NCBI GenBank assembly: GCA_000004985.1
Contig: GG739089.1
Length of the DNA stretch: 8,109 nucleotides
Strand: one strand, 5' to 3'
Origin: Naegleria gruberi
Lineage: Eukaryota
The notes beneath the pieces are model-generated. The model ran no database searches. It saw nothing but the letters and a program-made list of their open reading frames with translations, and was not told the DNA's origin. A program made the translations under genes and the position numbers. This document shows, piece after piece, positions 1-8,108 of the stretch (positions are counted from its first letter, which is position 1; each line of letters starts with the position of its first letter).

Positions 1-1
1 A

Positions 2-199
2 ACAACTTCTTGCACTGCAGCATCAAAAGCTGCTGTCATTTGGCTGGTGATGACTTGTGCCTTCACGCCAACTGTCAAACACACAATAAACAATAACAGG
101 ATAACAATTTGTTTCATTTTCTCTCCAGTAGAAGTAATAGGTGGATGTTTTGTTAATTTTTTCTTGTTGATTTGGTACGAAATGCAAAATGCTTTTTAA
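2..199 (+). CDS. 5'-partial ORF entering from the left window edge: 65 codons plus TAA, in the frame starting at nt 2. Translation is TTSCTAASKAAVIWLVMTCAFTPTVKHTINNNRITICFIFSPVEVIGGCFVNFFLLIWYEMQNAF*. It looks like the hydrophobic C-terminal tail (two TM-like segments) of a membrane protein, possibly a terminal exon.
   Basis: I translated it by hand and found an open frame from 2 to 196 with TAA at 197-199. The two other plus frames hit stops at 48-50 and about 91-93. Local GC (about 47%) is higher than the intergenic sequence downstream, which is exon-like. There are two hydrophobic stretches, AAVIWLVMTCAF and ITICFIFSPVEVIGGCFVNFFLLIWY. The track omits it because it has no in-window start codon. 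A minus-strand ORF at 23..208 overlaps it and is the competing explanation. Confidence 0.25.
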   Translation, partial: TTSCTAASKAAVIWLVMTCAFTPTVKHTINNNRITICFIFSPVEVIGGCFVNFFLLIWYEMQNAF

Positions 200-1004
200 C
201 ACGCACACTTACGCATTCATCCAAATTTAGAAGGCGATTCTTTGTTGAGTGAATGCTAAATATTTTCAATAATATCTAAATTCGATAAGAATACACTAAT
301 GAGAAAAGTGAATTGTGTCTCTTCTCCAAAATGCACTTTTTATCTCTTTTATTGCTATGCCAAATGTCAATTAGATAGCAAACACATCTATAAAGAATTG
401 GCAAGATTTTGATGGCAAGACGAATCGGAAGAGAGAAAGCTCTACAAATTCCATTGTTGTGGAAAGATGGATGGTTGATTTCCGTGAAGTATGTCAGATG
501 CCAATTTCAAAGTTGTTTCGGGGGGAAGTATGGAAAAGGGTATGAGAAATGTGTCCTGTTAGCATTTTCTGTTAATTTAAATATTTGGAAAGTAAATTGT
601 TGTGAACGAAGGATTCGTAAATGGCATGCTTTGTATTACATACTGTCAAATGTTTCTAATATTTCTTGAAACTTCTGTAAACTAAATCATATATGAAGAA
701 ATGCCAGGATGCTTACTCCTGTTGTGTTTTCTAACTGGCTAAATGTCGTGATCGTGGCTATTATCCAATCTTGTTATCCAAATGAAAGCTAACACGAATT
801 GGATAAATGAAAAATGGGTTATGCAATGCTAATAAACATTTTTAGTATCCACTTCTGCTAAAAGAAACTGCAATAGATCTTATGGCACGTTGTTGCAAAC
901 TTATGAGAATGCAGTACTGATTCTCACCAATAAATTTCCCCTTAAAATTGTCCAGGAACATTAATCATCCGATGCTTTGGTCTGGACTACTCAGTGATCC
1001 CTCA

Positions 1005-1042
1005 CTGAGGTTCACCTTAATAACTGAGGTTCACCTTAATAA
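1005..1042. repeat. Perfect 2-copy direct tandem repeat of a 19-bp unit, ctgaggttcaccttaataa (1005-1023 and 1024-1042). A 7-bp stem hairpin, tcagtga-tccc-tcactga, lies at 991-1008 and overlaps the repeat start.
   Basis: Read directly from the sequence: ...tcagtgatccctcaCTGAGGTTCACCTTAATAACTGAGGTTCACCTTAATAAcaatagag. The right arm of the inverted repeat overlaps the first repeat copy. Confidence 0.9.
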
Positions 1043-1242
1043 CAATAGAGTACTTAGTTGTAAACACAGTGTAATACTTGTTCAACAAGTGAAAATTTCC
1101 TATTGAATTTGGCCGATATTTATCAATATAATAATACTTGCCACTGAACCTACTGTTAGAGTTGTTGGAAGTGGTGATCCTGTAGTATGTGCTTTAATTA
1201 AACAATTCTTGAATGTCACTAATGGAAACACAATCAATGGTA

Positions 1243-1248: not shown

Positions 1249-1273
1249 GGACTTCAAGTCCATCAAATCCAGG

Positions 1274-2134
1274 TCAATAATAACCACTTCCATAGACCTT
1301 CTCCACAATGATGAGATTTTCCTTTTCATTTAAGGTTACACGCATCTCATAGAAACTATATAGTGCACCAGCATTGAAAAAGATTGGAAACATTTGCTTA
1401 TCATAATCTTCCCACGAGGATGAAGTTGATGATTGGCTTGTGTAATGTCCATCCAAGTTTGAAAAATAGCAAAATGGACTAATTTGCTGAGATAAATATT
1501 GTTCCAATTTGTCAGTTGATGATTCCTCCTCTTCTTCTTCTGAATCATCGTCTGATGTTATAATATAAGGTGATACTCCATAAACAATCTTACTGTACTT
1601 GACATTACAATTCAATCTCTTTTTGAAGAATAACAAATCCAAACATGAAAACCATTCATCTCCTTCACTAATCAAAATAATAAAACAAAATAATGAGAAT
1701 GGTATTAAAATCTTGGCCTCTTTCACAATATCTGAATTATCATCCCAGAAACATTGATGTAATATAACTTGATCTGTCACAGGATTAGGTCTGTATTCAT
1801 CCGAAATTAAACTTGTCATAATCACAACCAATTTCATCAAGTTTTCTCTCCTCCGTATCTCAAAAAACTCGCCAACCAATGTATTCTTCAAGAGAGGAAA
1901 AGAAAATGTAAATACTTGTTCCAAACTCAGAGAATCTCCTTGAACAATTGTAACATCTTCATTCCTCTCCTCCACTGATATAAATTTAGGAATGATCGAA
2001 AAGAGGTACTCTAAATAATCATAATGATCAGATAAACCTTCATCGGAATTTTGTAATTCAATTTCGATTTCAGGAAACATTGGATTCACAAAATCTTCCC
2101 ATCTAAAATGAGTATTCAACAGGGCAGTCCACAA
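1274..2134 (-). CDS. C-terminal coding region of a minus-strand gene; product is a hypothetical protein. The open frame covers 286 codons and ends at TGA 1274-1276. The first in-frame ATG is at 2078-2080 (MFPEIEIELQNSDEGLSDHYDYLEY…), giving 268 aa if it is free-standing. Most likely it is the 3' exon or C-terminal domain of the large gene that enters the gap. It contains the acidic/Ser cluster SDDDSEEEEEESS.
   Basis: An 861-nt stop-free frame in roughly 65-70% AT DNA is very unlikely to occur by chance. I verified the stop by hand: …VEKVYGSGYY* = revcomp of 1274-1303. The track's start at 2132-2134 is TTG, not ATG. The codon immediately upstream (2135-2137) is an in-frame TGA. The composition is globular-looking, with mixed hydrophobic and charged residues. 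Confidence 0.6.
   Translation of the reverse strand: MWTALLNTHFRWEDFVNPMFPEIEIELQNSDEGLSDHYDYLEYLFSIIPKFISVEERNEDVTIVQGDSLSLEQVFTFSFPLLKNTLVGEFFEIRRRENLMKLVVIMTSLISDEYRPNPVTDQVILHQCFWDDNSDIVKEAKILIPFSLFCFIILISEGDEWFSCLDLLFFKKRLNCNVKYSKIVYGVSPYIITSDDDSEEEEEESSTDKLEQYLSQQISPFCYFSNLDGHYTSQSSTSSSWEDYDKQMFPIFFNAGALYSFYEMRVTLNEKENLIIVEKVYGSGYY
1524..1543 (-). repeat. Coding (GAA/GAG)n trinucleotide run (tcctcctcttcttcttctga on plus) encoding the EEEEEE part of SDDDSEEEEEESS in the minus-strand C-terminal domain.
   Basis: Read directly from the sequence, in frame with the 1274..2134 ORF. Confidence 0.8.
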
Positions 2135-2168
2135 TCATAAATTTCCAAAGGCAGCCTCTCTCCAATAC
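2103..2168 (-). other. Candidate 66-nt GT..AG intron on the minus strand (gtattggagag…ctcattttag). Removing it would eliminate the in-frame TGA (2135-2137) and the TAG (2103-2105) and join the gap-side frame to the 286-codon ORF in phase.
   Basis: The minus-strand read from the gap edge is ttttgca|GTATTGGAGAGAGGCTGCCTTTGGAAATTTATGATTGTGGACTGCCCTGTTGAATACTCATTTTAG|atgggaagattttgtgaatccaatg. The length is a multiple of 3. The acceptor (pyrimidine-rich + AG) is good and the donor (GTATTG) is only fair. The octamer ttttgcag at 2168-2175 could itself be an acceptor instead. Confidence 0.2.
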
Positions 2169-2175
2169 TGCAAAA

Positions 2176-5100
2176 NNNNNNNNNNNNNNNNNNNNNNNNN
2201 NNNNNNNNNNNNNNNNNNNNNNNNNNNNNNNNNNNNNNNNNNNNNNNNNNNNNNNNNNNNNNNNNNNNNNNNNNNNNNNNNNNNNNNNNNNNNNNNNNNN
2301 NNNNNNNNNNNNNNNNNNNNNNNNNNNNNNNNNNNNNNNNNNNNNNNNNNNNNNNNNNNNNNNNNNNNNNNNNNNNNNNNNNNNNNNNNNNNNNNNNNNN
2401 NNNNNNNNNNNNNNNNNNNNNNNNNNNNNNNNNNNNNNNNNNNNNNNNNNNNNNNNNNNNNNNNNNNNNNNNNNNNNNNNNNNNNNNNNNNNNNNNNNNN
2501 NNNNNNNNNNNNNNNNNNNNNNNNNNNNNNNNNNNNNNNNNNNNNNNNNNNNNNNNNNNNNNNNNNNNNNNNNNNNNNNNNNNNNNNNNNNNNNNNNNNN
2601 NNNNNNNNNNNNNNNNNNNNNNNNNNNNNNNNNNNNNNNNNNNNNNNNNNNNNNNNNNNNNNNNNNNNNNNNNNNNNNNNNNNNNNNNNNNNNNNNNNNN
2701 NNNNNNNNNNNNNNNNNNNNNNNNNNNNNNNNNNNNNNNNNNNNNNNNNNNNNNNNNNNNNNNNNNNNNNNNNNNNNNNNNNNNNNNNNNNNNNNNNNNN
2801 NNNNNNNNNNNNNNNNNNNNNNNNNNNNNNNNNNNNNNNNNNNNNNNNNNNNNNNNNNNNNNNNNNNNNNNNNNNNNNNNNNNNNNNNNNNNNNNNNNNN
2901 NNNNNNNNNNNNNNNNNNNNNNNNNNNNNNNNNNNNNNNNNNNNNNNNNNNNNNNNNNNNNNNNNNNNNNNNNNNNNNNNNNNNNNNNNNNNNNNNNNNN
3001 NNNNNNNNNNNNNNNNNNNNNNNNNNNNNNNNNNNNNNNNNNNNNNNNNNNNNNNNNNNNNNNNNNNNNNNNNNNNNNNNNNNNNNNNNNNNNNNNNNNN
3101 NNNNNNNNNNNNNNNNNNNNNNNNNNNNNNNNNNNNNNNNNNNNNNNNNNNNNNNNNNNNNNNNNNNNNNNNNNNNNNNNNNNNNNNNNNNNNNNNNNNN
3201 NNNNNNNNNNNNNNNNNNNNNNNNNNNNNNNNNNNNNNNNNNNNNNNNNNNNNNNNNNNNNNNNNNNNNNNNNNNNNNNNNNNNNNNNNNNNNNNNNNNN
3301 NNNNNNNNNNNNNNNNNNNNNNNNNNNNNNNNNNNNNNNNNNNNNNNNNNNNNNNNNNNNNNNNNNNNNNNNNNNNNNNNNNNNNNNNNNNNNNNNNNNN
3401 NNNNNNNNNNNNNNNNNNNNNNNNNNNNNNNNNNNNNNNNNNNNNNNNNNNNNNNNNNNNNNNNNNNNNNNNNNNNNNNNNNNNNNNNNNNNNNNNNNNN
3501 NNNNNNNNNNNNNNNNNNNNNNNNNNNNNNNNNNNNNNNNNNNNNNNNNNNNNNNNNNNNNNNNNNNNNNNNNNNNNNNNNNNNNNNNNNNNNNNNNNNN
3601 NNNNNNNNNNNNNNNNNNNNNNNNNNNNNNNNNNNNNNNNNNNNNNNNNNNNNNNNNNNNNNNNNNNNNNNNNNNNNNNNNNNNNNNNNNNNNNNNNNNN
3701 NNNNNNNNNNNNNNNNNNNNNNNNNNNNNNNNNNNNNNNNNNNNNNNNNNNNNNNNNNNNNNNNNNNNNNNNNNNNNNNNNNNNNNNNNNNNNNNNNNNN
3801 NNNNNNNNNNNNNNNNNNNNNNNNNNNNNNNNNNNNNNNNNNNNNNNNNNNNNNNNNNNNNNNNNNNNNNNNNNNNNNNNNNNNNNNNNNNNNNNNNNNN
3901 NNNNNNNNNNNNNNNNNNNNNNNNNNNNNNNNNNNNNNNNNNNNNNNNNNNNNNNNNNNNNNNNNNNNNNNNNNNNNNNNNNNNNNNNNNNNNNNNNNNN
4001 NNNNNNNNNNNNNNNNNNNNNNNNNNNNNNNNNNNNNNNNNNNNNNNNNNNNNNNNNNNNNNNNNNNNNNNNNNNNNNNNNNNNNNNNNNNNNNNNNNNN
4101 NNNNNNNNNNNNNNNNNNNNNNNNNNNNNNNNNNNNNNNNNNNNNNNNNNNNNNNNNNNNNNNNNNNNNNNNNNNNNNNNNNNNNNNNNNNNNNNNNNNN
4201 NNNNNNNNNNNNNNNNNNNNNNNNNNNNNNNNNNNNNNNNNNNNNNNNNNNNNNNNNNNNNNNNNNNNNNNNNNNNNNNNNNNNNNNNNNNNNNNNNNNN
4301 NNNNNNNNNNNNNNNNNNNNNNNNNNNNNNNNNNNNNNNNNNNNNNNNNNNNNNNNNNNNNNNNNNNNNNNNNNNNNNNNNNNNNNNNNNNNNNNNNNNN
4401 NNNNNNNNNNNNNNNNNNNNNNNNNNNNNNNNNNNNNNNNNNNNNNNNNNNNNNNNNNNNNNNNNNNNNNNNNNNNNNNNNNNNNNNNNNNNNNNNNNNN
4501 NNNNNNNNNNNNNNNNNNNNNNNNNNNNNNNNNNNNNNNNNNNNNNNNNNNNNNNNNNNNNNNNNNNNNNNNNNNNNNNNNNNNNNNNNNNNNNNNNNNN
4601 NNNNNNNNNNNNNNNNNNNNNNNNNNNNNNNNNNNNNNNNNNNNNNNNNNNNNNNNNNNNNNNNNNNNNNNNNNNNNNNNNNNNNNNNNNNNNNNNNNNN
4701 NNNNNNNNNNNNNNNNNNNNNNNNNNNNNNNNNNNNNNNNNNNNNNNNNNNNNNNNNNNNNNNNNNNNNNNNNNNNNNNNNNNNNNNNNNNNNNNNNNNN
4801 NNNNNNNNNNNNNNNNNNNNNNNNNNNNNNNNNNNNNNNNNNNNNNNNNNNNNNNNNNNNNNNNNNNNNNNNNNNNNNNNNNNNNNNNNNNNNNNNNNNN
4901 NNNNNNNNNNNNNNNNNNNNNNNNNNNNNNNNNNNNNNNNNNNNNNNNNNNNNNNNNNNNNNNNNNNNNNNNNNNNNNNNNNNNNNNNNNNNNNNNNNNN
5001 NNNNNNNNNNNNNNNNNNNNNNNNNNNNNNNNNNNNNNNNNNNNNNNNNNNNNNNNNNNNNNNNNNNNNNNNNNNNNNNNNNNNNNNNNNNNNNNNNNNN

Positions 5101-6786
5101 NNNNNNNNNNNNNNNNNNNNNNNNNNNNNNNNNNNNNNNNNNNNNNNNNNNNNNNNNNNNNNNNNNNNNNNNNNNNNNNNNNNNNNNNNNNNNNNNNNNN
5201 NNNNNNNNNNNNNNNNNNNNNNNNNNNNNNNNNNNNNNNNNNNNNNNNNNNNNNNNNNNNNNNNNNNNNNNNNNNNNNNNNNNNNNNNNNNNNNNNNNNN
5301 NNNNNNNNNNNNNNNNNNNNNNNNNNNNNNNNNNNNNNNNNNNNNNNNNNNNNNNNNNNNNNNNNNNNNNNNNNNNNNNNNNNNNNNNNNNNNNNNNNNN
5401 NNNNNNNNNNNNNNNNNNNNNNNNNNNNNNNNNNNNNNNNNNNNNNNNNNNNNNNNNNNNNNNNNNNNNNNNNNNNNNNNNNNNNNNNNNNNNNNNNNNN
5501 NNNNNNNNNNNNNNNNNNNNNNNNNNNNNNNNNNNNNNNNNNNNNNNNNNNNNNNNNNNNNNNNNNNNNNNNNNNNNNNNNNNNNNNNNNNNNNNNNNNN
5601 NNNNNNNNNNNNNNNNNNNNNNNNNNNNNNNNNNNNNNNNNNNNNNNNNNNNNNNNNNNNNNNNNNNNNNNNNNNNNNNNNNNNNNNNNNNNNNNNNNNN
5701 NNNNNNNNNNNNNNNNNNNNNNNNNNNNNNNNNNNNNNNNNNNNNNNNNNNNNNNNNNNNNNNNNNNNNNNNNNNNNNNNNNNNNNNNNNNNNNNNNNNN
5801 NNNNNNNNNNNNNNNNNNNNNNNNNNNNNNNNNNNNNNNNNNNNNNNNNNNNNNNNNNNNNNNNNNNNNNNNNNNNNNNNNNNNNNNNNNNNNNNNNNNN
5901 NNNNNNNNNNNNNNNNNNNNNNNNNNNNNNNNNNNNNNNNNNNNNNNNNNNNNNNNNNNNNNNNNNNNNNNNNNNNNNNNNNNNNNNNNNNNNNNNNNNN
6001 NNNNNNNNNNNNNNNNNNNNNNNNNNNNNNNNNNNNNNNNNNNNNNNNNNNNNNNNNNNNNNNNNNNNNNNNNNNNNNNNNNNNNNNNNNNNNNNNNNNN
6101 NNNNNNNNNNNNNNNNNNNNNNNNNNNNNNNNNNNNNNNNNNNNNNNNNNNNNNNNNNNNNNNNNNNNNNNNNNNNNNNNNNNNNNNNNNNNNNNNNNNN
6201 NNNNNNNNNNNNNNNNNNNNNNNNNNNNNNNNNNNNNNNNNNNNNNNNNNNNNNNNNNNNNNNNNNNNNNNNNNNNNNNNNNNNNNNNNNNNNNNNNNNN
6301 NNNNNNNNNNNNNNNNNNNNNNNNNNNNNNNNNNNNNNNNNNNNNNNNNNNNNNNNNNNNNNNNNNNNNNNNNNNNNNNNNNNNNNNNNNNNNNNNNNNN
6401 NNNNNNNNNNNNNNNNNNNNNNNNNNNNNNNNNNNNNNNNNNNNNNNNNNNNNNNNNNNNNNNNNNNNNNNNNNNNNNNNNNNNNNNNNNNNNNNNNNNN
6501 NNNNNNNNNNNNNNNNNNNNNNNNNNNNNNNNNNNNNNNNNNNNNNNNNNNNNNNNNNNNNNNNNNNNNNNNNNNNNNNNNNNNNNNNNNNNNNNNNNNN
6601 NNNNNNNNNNNNNNNNNNNNNNNNNNNNNNNNNNNNNNNNNNNNNNNNNNNNNNNNNNNNNNNNNNNNNNNNNNNNNNNNNNNNNNNNNNNNNNNNNNNN
6701 NNNNNNNNNNNNNNNNNNNNNNNNNNNNNNNNNNNNNNNNNNNNNNNNNNNNNNNNNNNNNNNNNNNNNNNNNNNNNNNNNNNNNN
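2176..6786. other. Run of 4,611 N: a scaffold gap or masked block with unknown content. The track ORFs 2103..6797 and most of 2135..7504 are X-translation artefacts.
   Basis: Counted directly: N from 2176 to 6786, and 4611 = 3 x 1537. The non-round size suggests an estimated gap or a masked real segment. Confidence 0.99.
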
Positions 6787-6787
6787 T

Positions 6788-7504
6788 GTTTGAACAAATT
6801 GAATTCATGAAATTAGCTCTAAGTAATCTTAATTTGTCACAAAATTGTCTAAAATTTGAAATAATGTCTTCCATCTCCTGAGACGATTCTCCTGATTCAA
6901 TACTTGTCGAAAAAGCATTAAAAGTCTCTCTAAAGTATTGTACCATAATTTCTGAGATATTCCCTTTGATTAAATACTCTCTTTGGTCGATATTCAACTT
7001 GTAAAATAGAGCTGATTGCACAAATACTATAAATTGTTCTCTCAGTCTCTCTTTAATTTCCAAACAGTTTTCTAATGTCGAAAATACAATTAAATATCGT
7101 TCTGTTATATTACAAATCATATGTACAGCCTGTACCAATGAATTAATATCCGAAATACTATTAAATATTGATACATGATTCTTAATAAAATGTTGTCTCA
7201 TATTTTGAATATATGGTTCAACAATTTGAGTTTTATCCATCACATTCCTCTCTGCCAACAATTTAATTTGCTGAAAACAAATTCCATTCGGATTTTCCAA
7301 CAATTCTGCACAATGAGCTGCATTAATTGCAATAGTTTTTAATAATTCCTGATGACCGGAACCCGAACCAGAACCTCCAACACTATATATTTCTTGTTGT
7401 TCTTTTTGTATGGATAATGATGATGAGGAACAAGCCTTGTTTGATAAATTCCCAACAGCATTCCAACTTTGCACTTGTTGTGCAAGAATTAAATTGTTCA
7501 TCAT
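6788..7504 (-). CDS. N-terminal 239 codons of a large minus-strand gene (hypothetical protein) that continues into the N gap. ATG-ATG is at 7499-7504. Translation is MMNNLILAQQVQSWNAVGNLSNKACSSSSLSIQKEQQEIYSVGGSGSGSGHQELLKTIAINAAHCAELLENPNGICFQQIKLL…RLLRANFMNSICSN. It is helical-looking, with a (GS)4 linker.
   Basis: I verified the codons at both ends by hand (revcomp of gttcatcat at 7496-7504 = ATGATGAAC; the last full codon at 6788-6790 is gtt, giving N). An in-frame TAA lies 6 nt upstream of the ATG, so this is the first ATG of the frame. The context is A-rich Kozak-like, aaaattaaaaaATGATG. It is 717 nt stop-free in AT-rich DNA. Confidence 0.6.
7356..7378 (-). repeat. Imperfect hexanucleotide tandem repeat (NGAACC)3, ccggaacccgaaccagaacctcc on plus, encoding the GSGSGSG linker of the N-terminal fragment.
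   Basis: Read directly from the sequence; it corresponds to SVGGSGSGSGHQ in the minus-strand translation. Confidence 0.7.
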
Positions 7505-7526
7505 TTTTTAATTTTGGAGGGAAATT
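7505..7526. promoter_or_regulatory. 22-bp spacer (tttttaattttggagggaaatt) between divergent start codons. The shared bidirectional 5' region/promoter must overlap it, or the true 5' ends lie elsewhere.
   Basis: The minus ATG is at 7502-7504 and the plus ATG at 7527-7529. In-frame stops sit immediately upstream of each (TAA at 7508-7510 for the minus gene, TAA at 7509-7511 for the plus gene), so neither ORF can extend 5' without an intron. Confidence 0.35.
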
Positions 7527-8108
7527 ATGAAAAAATATTTAAATTTTAATAAACAAGTTTTACTTTCAATTCTCTCTCGACAACAGCAGCAGAAACAACA
7601 ACAACAACGAGTAGATAGCTTTGAATCAAAAATATATAATAGAACAACAAATATTGAAGGATTGAATAGGAGTACAATAGTACAAGAAAGATTTTATAAT
7701 ACAAGCCTCATTAGAATGTCATCATCATCCGATAATAATAATAATTCATCATCACATGATGAGAGTATTGCACCTTCCTCTTCATCATCAGAACAACAAC
7801 AAGTAGATAATAATACAAATTTTGAACAAGTGGGATGGAATCAAACTAAAATTGATAGACCAACACAGGAAGATATTCAAGTCATTGAAAAGATACAATT
7901 GAAGAAGGCTATTACAGTGCCGAATGCTATTGTGAAGAGATGTAAATGGGGATATCCACAAGTGACATTTGCATTCACTAGTAAAAACAAGGCAGAAACT
8001 TCTGAGAATACCTATGTACCAGGAACATTCCTTTGGTTGACATGTCCTAGAGTTAATTTAATTATTGATAAAGTGGAAACATCTGATGAATTTAATGAAA
8101 TAAGAAGA
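7527..8108 (+). CDS. 3'-partial ORF of at least 194 codons running off the right window edge; product is a hypothetical protein. Its N-terminal low-complexity region (QQQQKQQQQ, SSSSDNNNNSSS, SSSSSEQQQ) is followed by a globular-looking segment, …KIQLKKAITVPNAIVKRCKWGYPQVTFAFTSKNKAETSENTYVPGTFLWLTCPRVNLIIDKVETSDEFNEIRR…
   Basis: I translated it codon by codon by hand from ATG 7527-7529 to 8108 and found no stop. An upstream in-frame TAA at 7509-7511 makes this the first ATG. The track omits it because it has no in-window stop. I cannot assign a family from memory. Confidence 0.6.
   Translation, partial: MKKYLNFNKQVLLSILSRQQQQKQQQQRVDSFESKIYNRTTNIEGLNRSTIVQERFYNTSLIRMSSSSDNNNNSSSHDESIAPSSSSSEQQQVDNNTNFEQVGWNQTKIDRPTQEDIQVIEKIQLKKAITVPNAIVKRCKWGYPQVTFAFTSKNKAETSENTYVPGTFLWLTCPRVNLIIDKVETSDEFNEIRR
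7581..7610 (+). repeat. Coding trinucleotide microsatellite (CAA/CAG)n encoding QQQQKQQQQR. The same gene has further runs at 7719..7754 ((TCA)4-GAT-(AAT)4-(TCA)4 = SSSSDNNNNSSSS) and at 7776..7802 (TCC-TCT-(TCA)3-GAA-(CAA)3).
   Basis: Read directly: caacagcagcagaaacaacaacaacaacga; tcatcatcatccgataataataataattcatcatca; tcctcttcatcatcagaacaacaacaa. Confidence 0.85.

What the first reader, a model, noticed from the sequence alone, without database searches (positions are those of the whole stretch)
2103..2175. In-frame TGA separating the gap-spanning frame from a 286-codon clearly coding ORF; candidate 66-nt phase-neutral intron
On the minus strand the frame coming out of the gap (…LQYWREAAFGNL) hits TGA at 2135-2137. 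The very next codon opens an 861-nt stop-free frame (to TGA 1274-1276), which is far too long to be chance in AT-rich DNA. That frame has no ATG until 2078-2080; the track's start is TTG. The N-terminal fragment at 6788..7504 is in the same frame if the 4,611-nt gap size is literal. The competing explanations and how far the sequence supports each:
- A short GT..AG intron (gtattgg…cattttag, 2168→2103, 66 nt, a multiple of 3) would splice the stop out cleanly. This is frame-compatible but the donor is weak.
- Programmed readthrough or a selenocysteine codon. Nothing in the window argues for or against this.
- A TGA-sense genetic code. The ORF ending in TGA at 1274 argues weakly against it.
- A sequencing or assembly error next to a gap. 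Proximity to the gap makes this plausible.
- Two separate genes, with the downstream one initiating at Met 2078-2080. The sequence allows this.
Basis: partly seen in the sequence, partly recalled or inferred. Interest (0 to 1): 0.5.

Follow-up and report, generated by a model that had tools for sequence, protein, structure and literature searches.

The report
Stop codon artefact beside assembly gap
The in-frame TGA is a one-base difference (GGA glycine in two other copies) inside an ordinary, intronless F-box gene of the amoeba Naegleria gruberi, sitting with a frameshift and a mismatch in the last 41 bases before a scaffold gap, so it is most likely a draft-assembly error rather than an intron, selenocysteine or a variant genetic code.

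Summary
In detail: TGA at 2137-2135 (minus strand) is followed by a 286-codon open frame ending at TGA 1276-1274.

The window is a complete 8109-nt scaffold of the Naegleria gruberi NEG-M draft assembly. Its annotated partial protein EFC35651.1 (275 aa) equals window 2101..1277 exactly.

The same assembly holds a full-length copy on a 707,703-nt scaffold (NAEGRDRAFT_46368, 326 aa, F-box-like). A third copy lies on metagenome contig L001 as one uninterrupted 981-nt ORF, with an in-frame stop 5 codons upstream of its ATG and a divergent neighbour gene.

Both full-length copies read ...VCKYWREAAFGNLGLWTALL..., so the TGA replaces Gly40 (GGA) inside the F-box-like domain. The 66 nt proposed as an intron encode residues 30-51.

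Against L001, the last 41 nt before the gap carry three differences: T/G at 2175, a 1-nt deletion at 2169 and T/G at 2137. The next 834 nt carry 8 substitutions (Poisson P about 0.008). Because of the deletion, the proposed intron would not restore the true upstream frame.

No SECIS was found. The upstream fragment is the N-terminus of APC2, a separate gene that must end inside the gap.

Verdict: contig-end sequencing error (about 0.7) or allele-specific lesions (about 0.2). This is not a biological recoding feature. Interest is low.

The parts
2135..2137 (-). In-frame TGA at the position of Gly40 (GGA) of the F-box-like protein. It is a single G->T difference.
   Evidence: L001 631-633 GGA versus window TGA. 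P0001 and P0003 both read GNLGLW.
2168..2170 (-). Site of a 1-nt deletion (AA->A in ...tgcaAgtat...). It shifts the frame between the hidden N-terminal codons and the visible ORF.
   Evidence: alignment: L001 TTTGCAAGTATTGG versus window TTTGC-AGTATTGG.
2175..2175 (-). The last base before the gap mismatches the homologue (T versus G, first base of the Val27 codon).
   Evidence: L001 592 g versus window 2175 t on the minus strand.
2103..2168 (-). The proposed 66-nt intron. It is in fact coding sequence for residues 30-51 (YWREAAFGNLGLWTALLNTHFR).
   Evidence: Searches show it colinear and coding in P0001 and L001. One search shows the F-box-like hit is lost when it is deleted. One search shows the frame is not restored in the true upstream frame.
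2120..2175 (-). Visible C-terminal part of the F-box-like domain (residues about 27-45 of the 326-aa protein).
   Evidence: PF12937 matches residues 10-45 of P0001 and P0003 (31.4 bits, cutoff 24.3).
1274..2134 (-). The remainder of the F-box-like gene (codons 41-326 plus stop TGA 1276-1274). The annotated partial model EFC35651.1 covers 2101..1277.
   Evidence: 275/275 identity to P0002.
2176..6786 (.). Scaffold gap of 4611 N with an estimated size. By homology and synteny it must hide the first 26 codons and promoter of the F-box gene, a divergent neighbour gene, and the 3' two-thirds of APC2.
   Evidence: gap. (L001 upstream region). (APC2 is about 2.55 kb in N. lovaniensis). (the assembly has 1977 contigs in 784 scaffolds).
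6788..7504 (-). N-terminal 239 codons of a separate gene, anaphase-promoting complex subunit 2 (APC2).
   Evidence: P0004, 56% identity. (TPR_ANAPC2). (synteny with DUF501 in L002 and L003).
7527..8108 (+). 5' part of a DUF501 gene, head-to-head with APC2. It is context only.
   Evidence: (PF04417, 27.7 bits).

Best explanation
The window is a small, gapped, redundant scaffold of the Naegleria gruberi NEG-M draft assembly. It is probably the alternate haplotype of a locus that is assembled cleanly on a 707,703-nt scaffold.

The 286-codon frame is the body of a stand-alone, intronless 326-codon F-box-like gene (NAEGRDRAFT_46368 family). Its start codon and first 26 codons lie in the gap.

The TGA is codon 40, which is GGA (Gly) in the two other known copies. 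Together with a 1-nt deletion 32 nt upstream and a mismatch at the very last base, it lies in the final 41 bases of the contig before the gap. I take all three as base-calling or assembly errors of a low-coverage contig end.

Nothing is spliced or recoded. The long gap-spanning frame is an artefact of translating N, and the fragment on the far side of the gap is a different gene (APC2).

Shown: gene identity, absence of the intron, stand-alone gene structure, position of the TGA in the F-box, and clustering of differences at the contig end.

Inferred: that the differences are errors rather than real allelic mutations, and that the scaffold is a haplotig.
For: -: the only homologue is N. gruberi P0001, 326 aa, 99% identical, with PF12937.
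- P0002 (EFC35651.1, 'predicted protein, partial') sits on a contig of exactly 8109 nt and is 275/275 identical to window 2101..1277. P0001 is on a 707,703-nt contig of the same organism.
- P0001 and P0003 read VCKYWREAAFGNLGLWTALL, with Gly where the window has TGA.
- on L001 the gene is one uninterrupted ORF (514-1494). It has an in-frame stop 5 codons before the ATG and an oppositely oriented gene upstream.
- window versus L001 gives 3 differences in the last 41 nt, two of them ORF-breaking. The next 834 nt give 8 substitutions (5 synonymous, 3 nonsynonymous). Poisson P = 0.0076.
- the TGA lies within the F-box-like match (residues 10-45).
- the N. gruberi assembly has 1977 contigs in 784 scaffolds, so sized gaps are normal.
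- the strain is described as heterozygous and diploid.
Against: - No reads or quality values are available, so error versus true variant cannot be settled here.
- The comparison DNA (L001) comes from a metagenome, not from NEG-M itself. For the NEG-M main scaffold only the protein was available.
- The other contig ends I could check (6787 and 8109) show no frame damage relative to homologues, so contig ends in this scaffold are not uniformly bad.
- Searches with the APC2 and DUF501 fragments returned no N. gruberi protein. I therefore could not show that the whole scaffold, rather than only its left contig, duplicates the 707-kb scaffold.
Confidence: 0.7

Rival explanations
1. The TGA, the 1-nt deletion and the mismatch are real. 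One allele, or a recent duplicate, of the F-box gene in heterozygous NEG-M is a null or decaying copy. It might still give a 268-aa F-box-less product from Met 2080-2078.
For: The scaffold differs from the other copies by about 1% throughout, including allele-like substitutions and 3' flank indels. This fits a genuine second haplotype. The strain is reported heterozygous. The other contig ends are clean.
Against: Three lesions lie within 41 nt, exactly at the contig end, while the remaining 834 nt look constrained (5 synonymous to 3 nonsynonymous substitutions, no further stops or indels). One of the three is the terminal base, which is typical of read-end error.
Confidence: 0.22
2. A 66-nt GT..AG spliceosomal intron (2168->2103) removes the stop.
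For: GT and AG are present and the length is a multiple of 3. The deposited partial model starts at 2101, right after this AG, so a gene finder may have used the same acceptor.
Against: The stretch is colinear coding sequence in L001 and in P0001 and P0003. It encodes half of the F-box-like domain, and deleting it removes the Pfam hit. Its GC content (41%) is above that of the ORF (32%). In the true N-terminal frame the splice gives FCNGKIL*.
Confidence: 0.01
3. UGA is decoded, either as selenocysteine or by programmed readthrough.
For: N. gruberi is reported to possess selenocysteine machinery.
Against: No SECIS or any credible Rfam hit appears in the whole window at E<=10. Homologues have Gly at the site, not Cys or Sec. 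The site lies in a structural F-box helix region, not a redox motif. A frameshift 32 nt upstream would still break the protein.
Confidence: 0.01
4. The organism reads TGA as a sense codon (variant genetic code).
For: None beyond the single in-frame TGA.
Against: The same gene terminates at TGA in both the window and L001. There is one in-frame TGA in about 720 visible codons of three genes. Homologues carry GGA at the site.
Confidence: 0.005
5. One very large gene spans the gap, running from the N-terminal fragment at 7504 into the 286-codon ORF.
For: Only the formal frame continuity through 4611 N.
Against: The fragment is the APC2 N-terminus. APC2 occupies about 2.55 kb in N. lovaniensis and is followed there by a convergent TLC-domain gene. 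The F-box gene has its own ATG, an upstream in-frame stop and a divergent neighbour on L001. The gap size is an estimate.
Confidence: 0.005

Closest known systems
NAEGRDRAFT_46368 (EFC48749.1 / XP_002681493.1), N. gruberi F-box-like 'predicted protein', 326 aa
   Same: It is 99% identical over all 286 visible codons. It has the same C-terminus and the same F-box-like segment YWREAAFGNL-LWTALL.
   Different: The window copy has TGA for Gly40, plus T->S and P->L changes, and its N-terminus is hidden in the gap. The reference differs from the window at one further S/T site.
EFC35651.1 / XP_002668395.1, 'predicted protein, partial' (the model deposited on this very scaffold)
   Same: Identical to window 2101..1277.
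   Different: The model is trimmed to start after the AG at 2104-2103. This hides the TGA and the frameshift instead of flagging them.
Redundant haplotigs and contig-end errors in Sanger-era draft assemblies of heterozygous diploids
   Same: This is a small gapped scaffold duplicating a locus of a large scaffold at about 99% identity, with discrepancies piling up at the contig end.
   Different: Read-level confirmation is not available here. Duplication was shown only for the left contig.
Short phase-neutral spliceosomal introns of Naegleria (median 80 bp in N. lovaniensis)
   Same: GT..AG ends and a size of 66 nt.
   Different: The stretch is retained as coding sequence in homologues. It is not AT-enriched, and it does not restore the true frame.

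Membership tests
F-box-like protein (Pfam PF12937) | Domain match above Pfam's gathering score | tested here: met
   P0001, P0003 and the window protein repaired with the P0001 N-terminus and Gly40 all score 31.4 bits against a cutoff of 24.3, over residues 10-45. In the window as sequenced, only residues about 27-45 are visible and they are interrupted by the TGA.
F-box-like protein (Pfam PF12937) | Skp1 binding / SCF complex membership | not testable with these tools
   This needs biochemistry. It is inferred only from the domain.
Spliceosomal intron | GT..AG boundaries | tested here: met
   GT at 2168-2167 and AG at 2104-2103.
Spliceosomal intron | The sequence is absent from the mature coding sequence, i.e. 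not conserved as in-frame coding sequence in homologues | tested here: not met
   All 66 nt are colinear and in frame in the L001 ORF and are translated in P0001 and P0003.
Spliceosomal intron | Removal yields an intact, domain-preserving ORF | tested here: not met
   The true upstream frame gives FCNGKIL* after splicing. The F-box-like hit is lost when residues 30-51 are deleted.
Eukaryotic selenoprotein gene | SECIS element in the 3' UTR | tested here: not met
   No SECIS family appears among the Rfam hits at E<=10 over the whole window. Only 5 weak snoRNA/miRNA chance matches were returned.
Eukaryotic selenoprotein gene | Cys or Sec at the homologous position in relatives | tested here: not met
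   Gly (GGA) in P0001, P0003 and L001.
TGA-sense genetic code | TGA is not used as a terminator and recurs at conserved sense positions | tested here: not met
   The gene ends in TGA in both the window and L001. There is a single in-frame TGA in the visible coding sequence.
Assembly artefact (contig-end error on a redundant haplotig) | A second, near-identical intact copy in the same assembly | tested here: met
   P0001 is on the 707,703-nt contig and P0002 on the 8109-nt contig. Both are N. gruberi NCBI entries.
Assembly artefact (contig-end error on a redundant haplotig) | Discrepancies concentrated at the contig end | tested here: met
   3 differences in 41 nt against 8 in 834 nt, P = 0.0076.
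Assembly artefact (contig-end error on a redundant haplotig) | Low read depth or quality at the discrepant bases | not testable with these tools
   No reads or quality values are available.

The most novel reading that the evidence does not exclude
The TGA and the adjacent frameshift are genuine. One haplotype of heterozygous N. gruberi NEG-M carries a freshly inactivated F-box gene. Alternatively it expresses, from Met 2080-2078, a 268-aa substrate-binding body without its F-box, which could act as a decoy. This would be an example of allele-specific gene loss in an amoeba whose sexuality and ploidy are still debated.
Probability: 0.2. Interest if true: 0.15.

Novelty: not a real feature. Interest (0 to 1): 0.04.

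Why it matters
It matters mainly as a caution. Translating through N runs creates phantom giant ORFs. A stop codon 38 nt from a scaffold gap invites exotic explanations (intron, selenocysteine, code change) that one comparison with a second copy dissolves.

It also shows that the deposited partial gene model on this scaffold hides two lesions by starting just downstream of them. If the lesions were real, they would only document a null allele of a lineage-specific F-box gene.

Tried and rejected
- I looked for the reference DNA of the main scaffold. The look-up of encoding contigs holds neither P0001 nor the window's own 275-aa product, so only the protein could be compared.
- A scan of JGI metagenome contigs with a 45-nt pattern across the TGA, with N at the variable base, found nothing.
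- Pfam on the 286-aa body gave no domain beyond a chance IIGP match.
- The Rfam permissive scan gave only 5 sub-threshold snoRNA/miRNA hits and no SECIS.
- I tried to show that the right contig also duplicates the 707-kb scaffold. No N. gruberi protein was returned for the DUF501 or APC2 fragments, so this stays open.
- I tried to place the F-box gene and its L001 neighbour in the syntenic regions of N. lovaniensis (L003) and L002. There was no tblastn hit, so the gene appears restricted to the N. gruberi lineage. The order of genes inside the gap is therefore inferred, not shown.
- The Fritz-Laylin 2010 genome paper is not held. Statements about heterozygosity and assembly statistics are taken second-hand from PMC9928731 and PMC6125883.

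Full report
**Observation.** The window is 8109 nt with one N run at 2176-6786 (4611 nt, divisible by 3) and about 33% GC on both sides. On the minus strand, right after the gap, the sequence reads tttTTG CAG TAT TGG AGA GAG GCT GCC TTT GGA AAT TTA TGA TTG TGG..., with the TGA at 2137-2135. The next 286 codons are open down to TGA 1276-1274. The first ATG is at 2080-2078, and GT (2168-2167) and AG (2104-2103) delimit 66 nt. A 287-codon open frame has a chance probability of about 1e-10 at this composition.

**Identity of the sequence.** The 286-aa product has a single hit in the 5.8-billion protein collection. It is a Naegleria gruberi 'predicted protein' of 326 aa (P0001, EFC48749.1, NAEGRDRAFT_46368), 99% identical over the whole query, carrying PF12937 F-box-like.

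Its 90% cluster has two more members.
- P0002 (EFC35651.1, 'predicted protein, partial', 275 aa) lies on a contig of exactly 8109 nt and is 275/275 identical to window 2101..1277.
- P0003 (326 aa) lies on a 1631-nt ENA metagenome contig.

The window is therefore an entire small scaffold of the N. gruberi NEG-M draft assembly, and the N run is a sized scaffold gap. That assembly has 1977 contigs in 784 scaffolds (PMC6125883). The same assembly holds an intact copy of the gene on a 707,703-nt scaffold. The strain is described as heterozygous and diploid (PMC9928731). The simplest reading is that the scaffold is the other haplotype, but this is an inference.

**What the TGA interrupts.** P0001 and P0003 begin MF(P/L)CRDELSVIFSFLPLEDLVNSKMLVCKYWREAAFGNLGLWTALLNTHFRWEDF.... 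The window reads ...YWREAAFGNL*LWTALLNTHFRWEDF, so the TGA stands for Gly40. Pfam places the F-box-like domain at residues 10-45 (31.4 bits, cutoff 24.3), which puts the stop inside the domain. The 66 nt proposed as an intron encode residues 30-51.

**Gene structure from an independent DNA copy.** The contig carrying P0003 (L001) shows the gene as one uninterrupted ORF of 981 nt (514-1494). An in-frame stop lies 5 codons upstream of the ATG, the spacer is 130 nt, and a gene on the opposite strand occupies 383..3. The gene is therefore intronless and stand-alone.

**Base-by-base comparison of the window (minus strand) with L001**.
- 2175, the last base before the gap: T versus G.
- 2169: a 1-nt deletion (AA->A).
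- 2137: T versus G (GGA->TGA).
- 2111: a synonymous change.
- The remaining 834 nt of coding sequence: only 8 substitutions (5 synonymous, 3 nonsynonymous), with no indel and no stop.

Three differences in the last 41 nt against that background rate have Poisson P = 0.0076, and two of the three destroy the ORF. Read tails at a low-coverage contig end produce this pattern. A real null allele is the alternative, and without reads it cannot be excluded.

*(a) Intron.* Because of the deletion at 2169, the true N-terminal frame entering from the gap is not the frame of 'LQYWRE...'. As sequenced it reads FCSIGERLPLEIYDCGLPC*. Removing 2168..2103 gives FCNGKIL* in that frame, so the 'phase-neutral' splice is neutral only relative to a wrong frame. 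Deleting residues 30-51 from the protein abolishes the F-box-like hit. The stretch has 41% GC against 32% for the ORF. The deposited partial model starts at 2101, immediately after the AG, so a gene finder probably used the same pseudo-acceptor. This masks the lesions rather than supporting an intron.

*(b) Selenocysteine or readthrough.* N. gruberi is reported to have the Sec machinery (PMC4561486), so the idea deserved a test. No SECIS-like match appears anywhere in the window at E<=10, the relatives have Gly rather than Cys or Sec, and the upstream frameshift would remain.

*(c) TGA-sense code.* The gene ends in TGA in both the window and L001, and the homologous codon is GGA.

*(d) One gene across the gap.* The 239-codon fragment at 7504..6788 matches the N-terminus of N. 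lovaniensis APC2 (P0004, 56% identity, TPR_ANAPC2).
- In N. lovaniensis (L003) and in another Naegleria-like contig (L002), APC2 sits head-to-head with a DUF501 gene, exactly as in the window (DUF501 at 7527->).
- APC2 occupies about 2.55 kb in N. lovaniensis and is followed there by a convergent TLC-domain gene.
- In the window it should therefore end near 4950, about 2.7 kb before the F-box gene. This figure is an extrapolation.
- The frame continuity through the gap comes only from N being translated as X.

*(e) Two genes with a Met 2080 start.* There are two genes, and probably more inside the gap. The native start of the downstream one is 29 codons upstream of Tyr30 (2167-2165), inside the gap.

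*(f) Error next to the gap.* This is the best-supported reading.

**Verdict.** This is an ordinary, already annotated, lineage-restricted F-box-like gene seen through a damaged contig end of a redundant draft scaffold. I put about 0.7 on sequencing or assembly error and about 0.2 on genuine allelic lesions. Intron, recoding, variant code and single giant gene together get under 0.05. Interest is low. The value of the finding is as a worked example of an artefact.

Noticed in passing
window 1004-1043: A perfect 19-nt tandem duplication (ACTGAGGTTCACCTTAATA x 2.1) lies in the 3' flank of the F-box gene. L001 does not cover it, so I do not know whether it is polymorphic.
   Followed up: partly
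window 1258-1277, 1189-1198 and about 1132-1136, versus L001 1491-1615: Length polymorphisms lie just past the stop codon. The window has a 20-nt insertion directly after (or overlapping) the TGA terminator and ending in a repeated TTGA, plus 10-nt and 8-nt indels further downstream. The stop is preserved in both.
   Followed up: partly
window 7505-7526; L003 9962-10001: APC2 and the DUF501 gene are head-to-head with only 22 nt between their start codons. The arrangement is conserved in N. lovaniensis, where the spacer is 38 nt. This is an extremely compact bidirectional promoter.
   Followed up: partly
window 6788-7504 and 7527-8108: Searches with the APC2 N-terminal fragment and with the DUF501 fragment returned no N. 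gruberi protein at all. Near-identical models should have been found if they existed, so both genes appear to be unannotated, or annotated without these parts, in the N. gruberi reference.
   Followed up: no
L003 10001-10990 and 11014-12548; L002 3138-4043 and 1611-2642: In both related contigs APC2 is called as two adjacent same-strand genes: a TPR_ANAPC2 part and a Cullin_AB/ANAPC2 part. They are 23 nt apart in N. lovaniensis. This is probably one gene split by an unrecognised short intron or a frameshift.
   Followed up: no
window 1-117, minus strand: An ORF starts at ATG 117-115 with a signal-peptide-like N-terminus (MKQIVILLLFIVCLTVGVKAQ...) and runs off the scaffold end.
   Followed up: no
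L001 (ENA ERZ929261, run ERR1078381, PRJEB11402): A metagenome assembly contains DNA about 99% identical to N. gruberi in the coding region. It represents a third haplotype or strain of this gene (P3L and K->Q relative to P0001).
   Followed up: no
window 2101-2104: The deposited partial CDS (EFC35651.1) begins at 2101, one base after the AG at 2104-2103. The automated model seems to have invoked a splice acceptor to avoid the in-frame stop, so the database entry hides the problem.
   Followed up: partly
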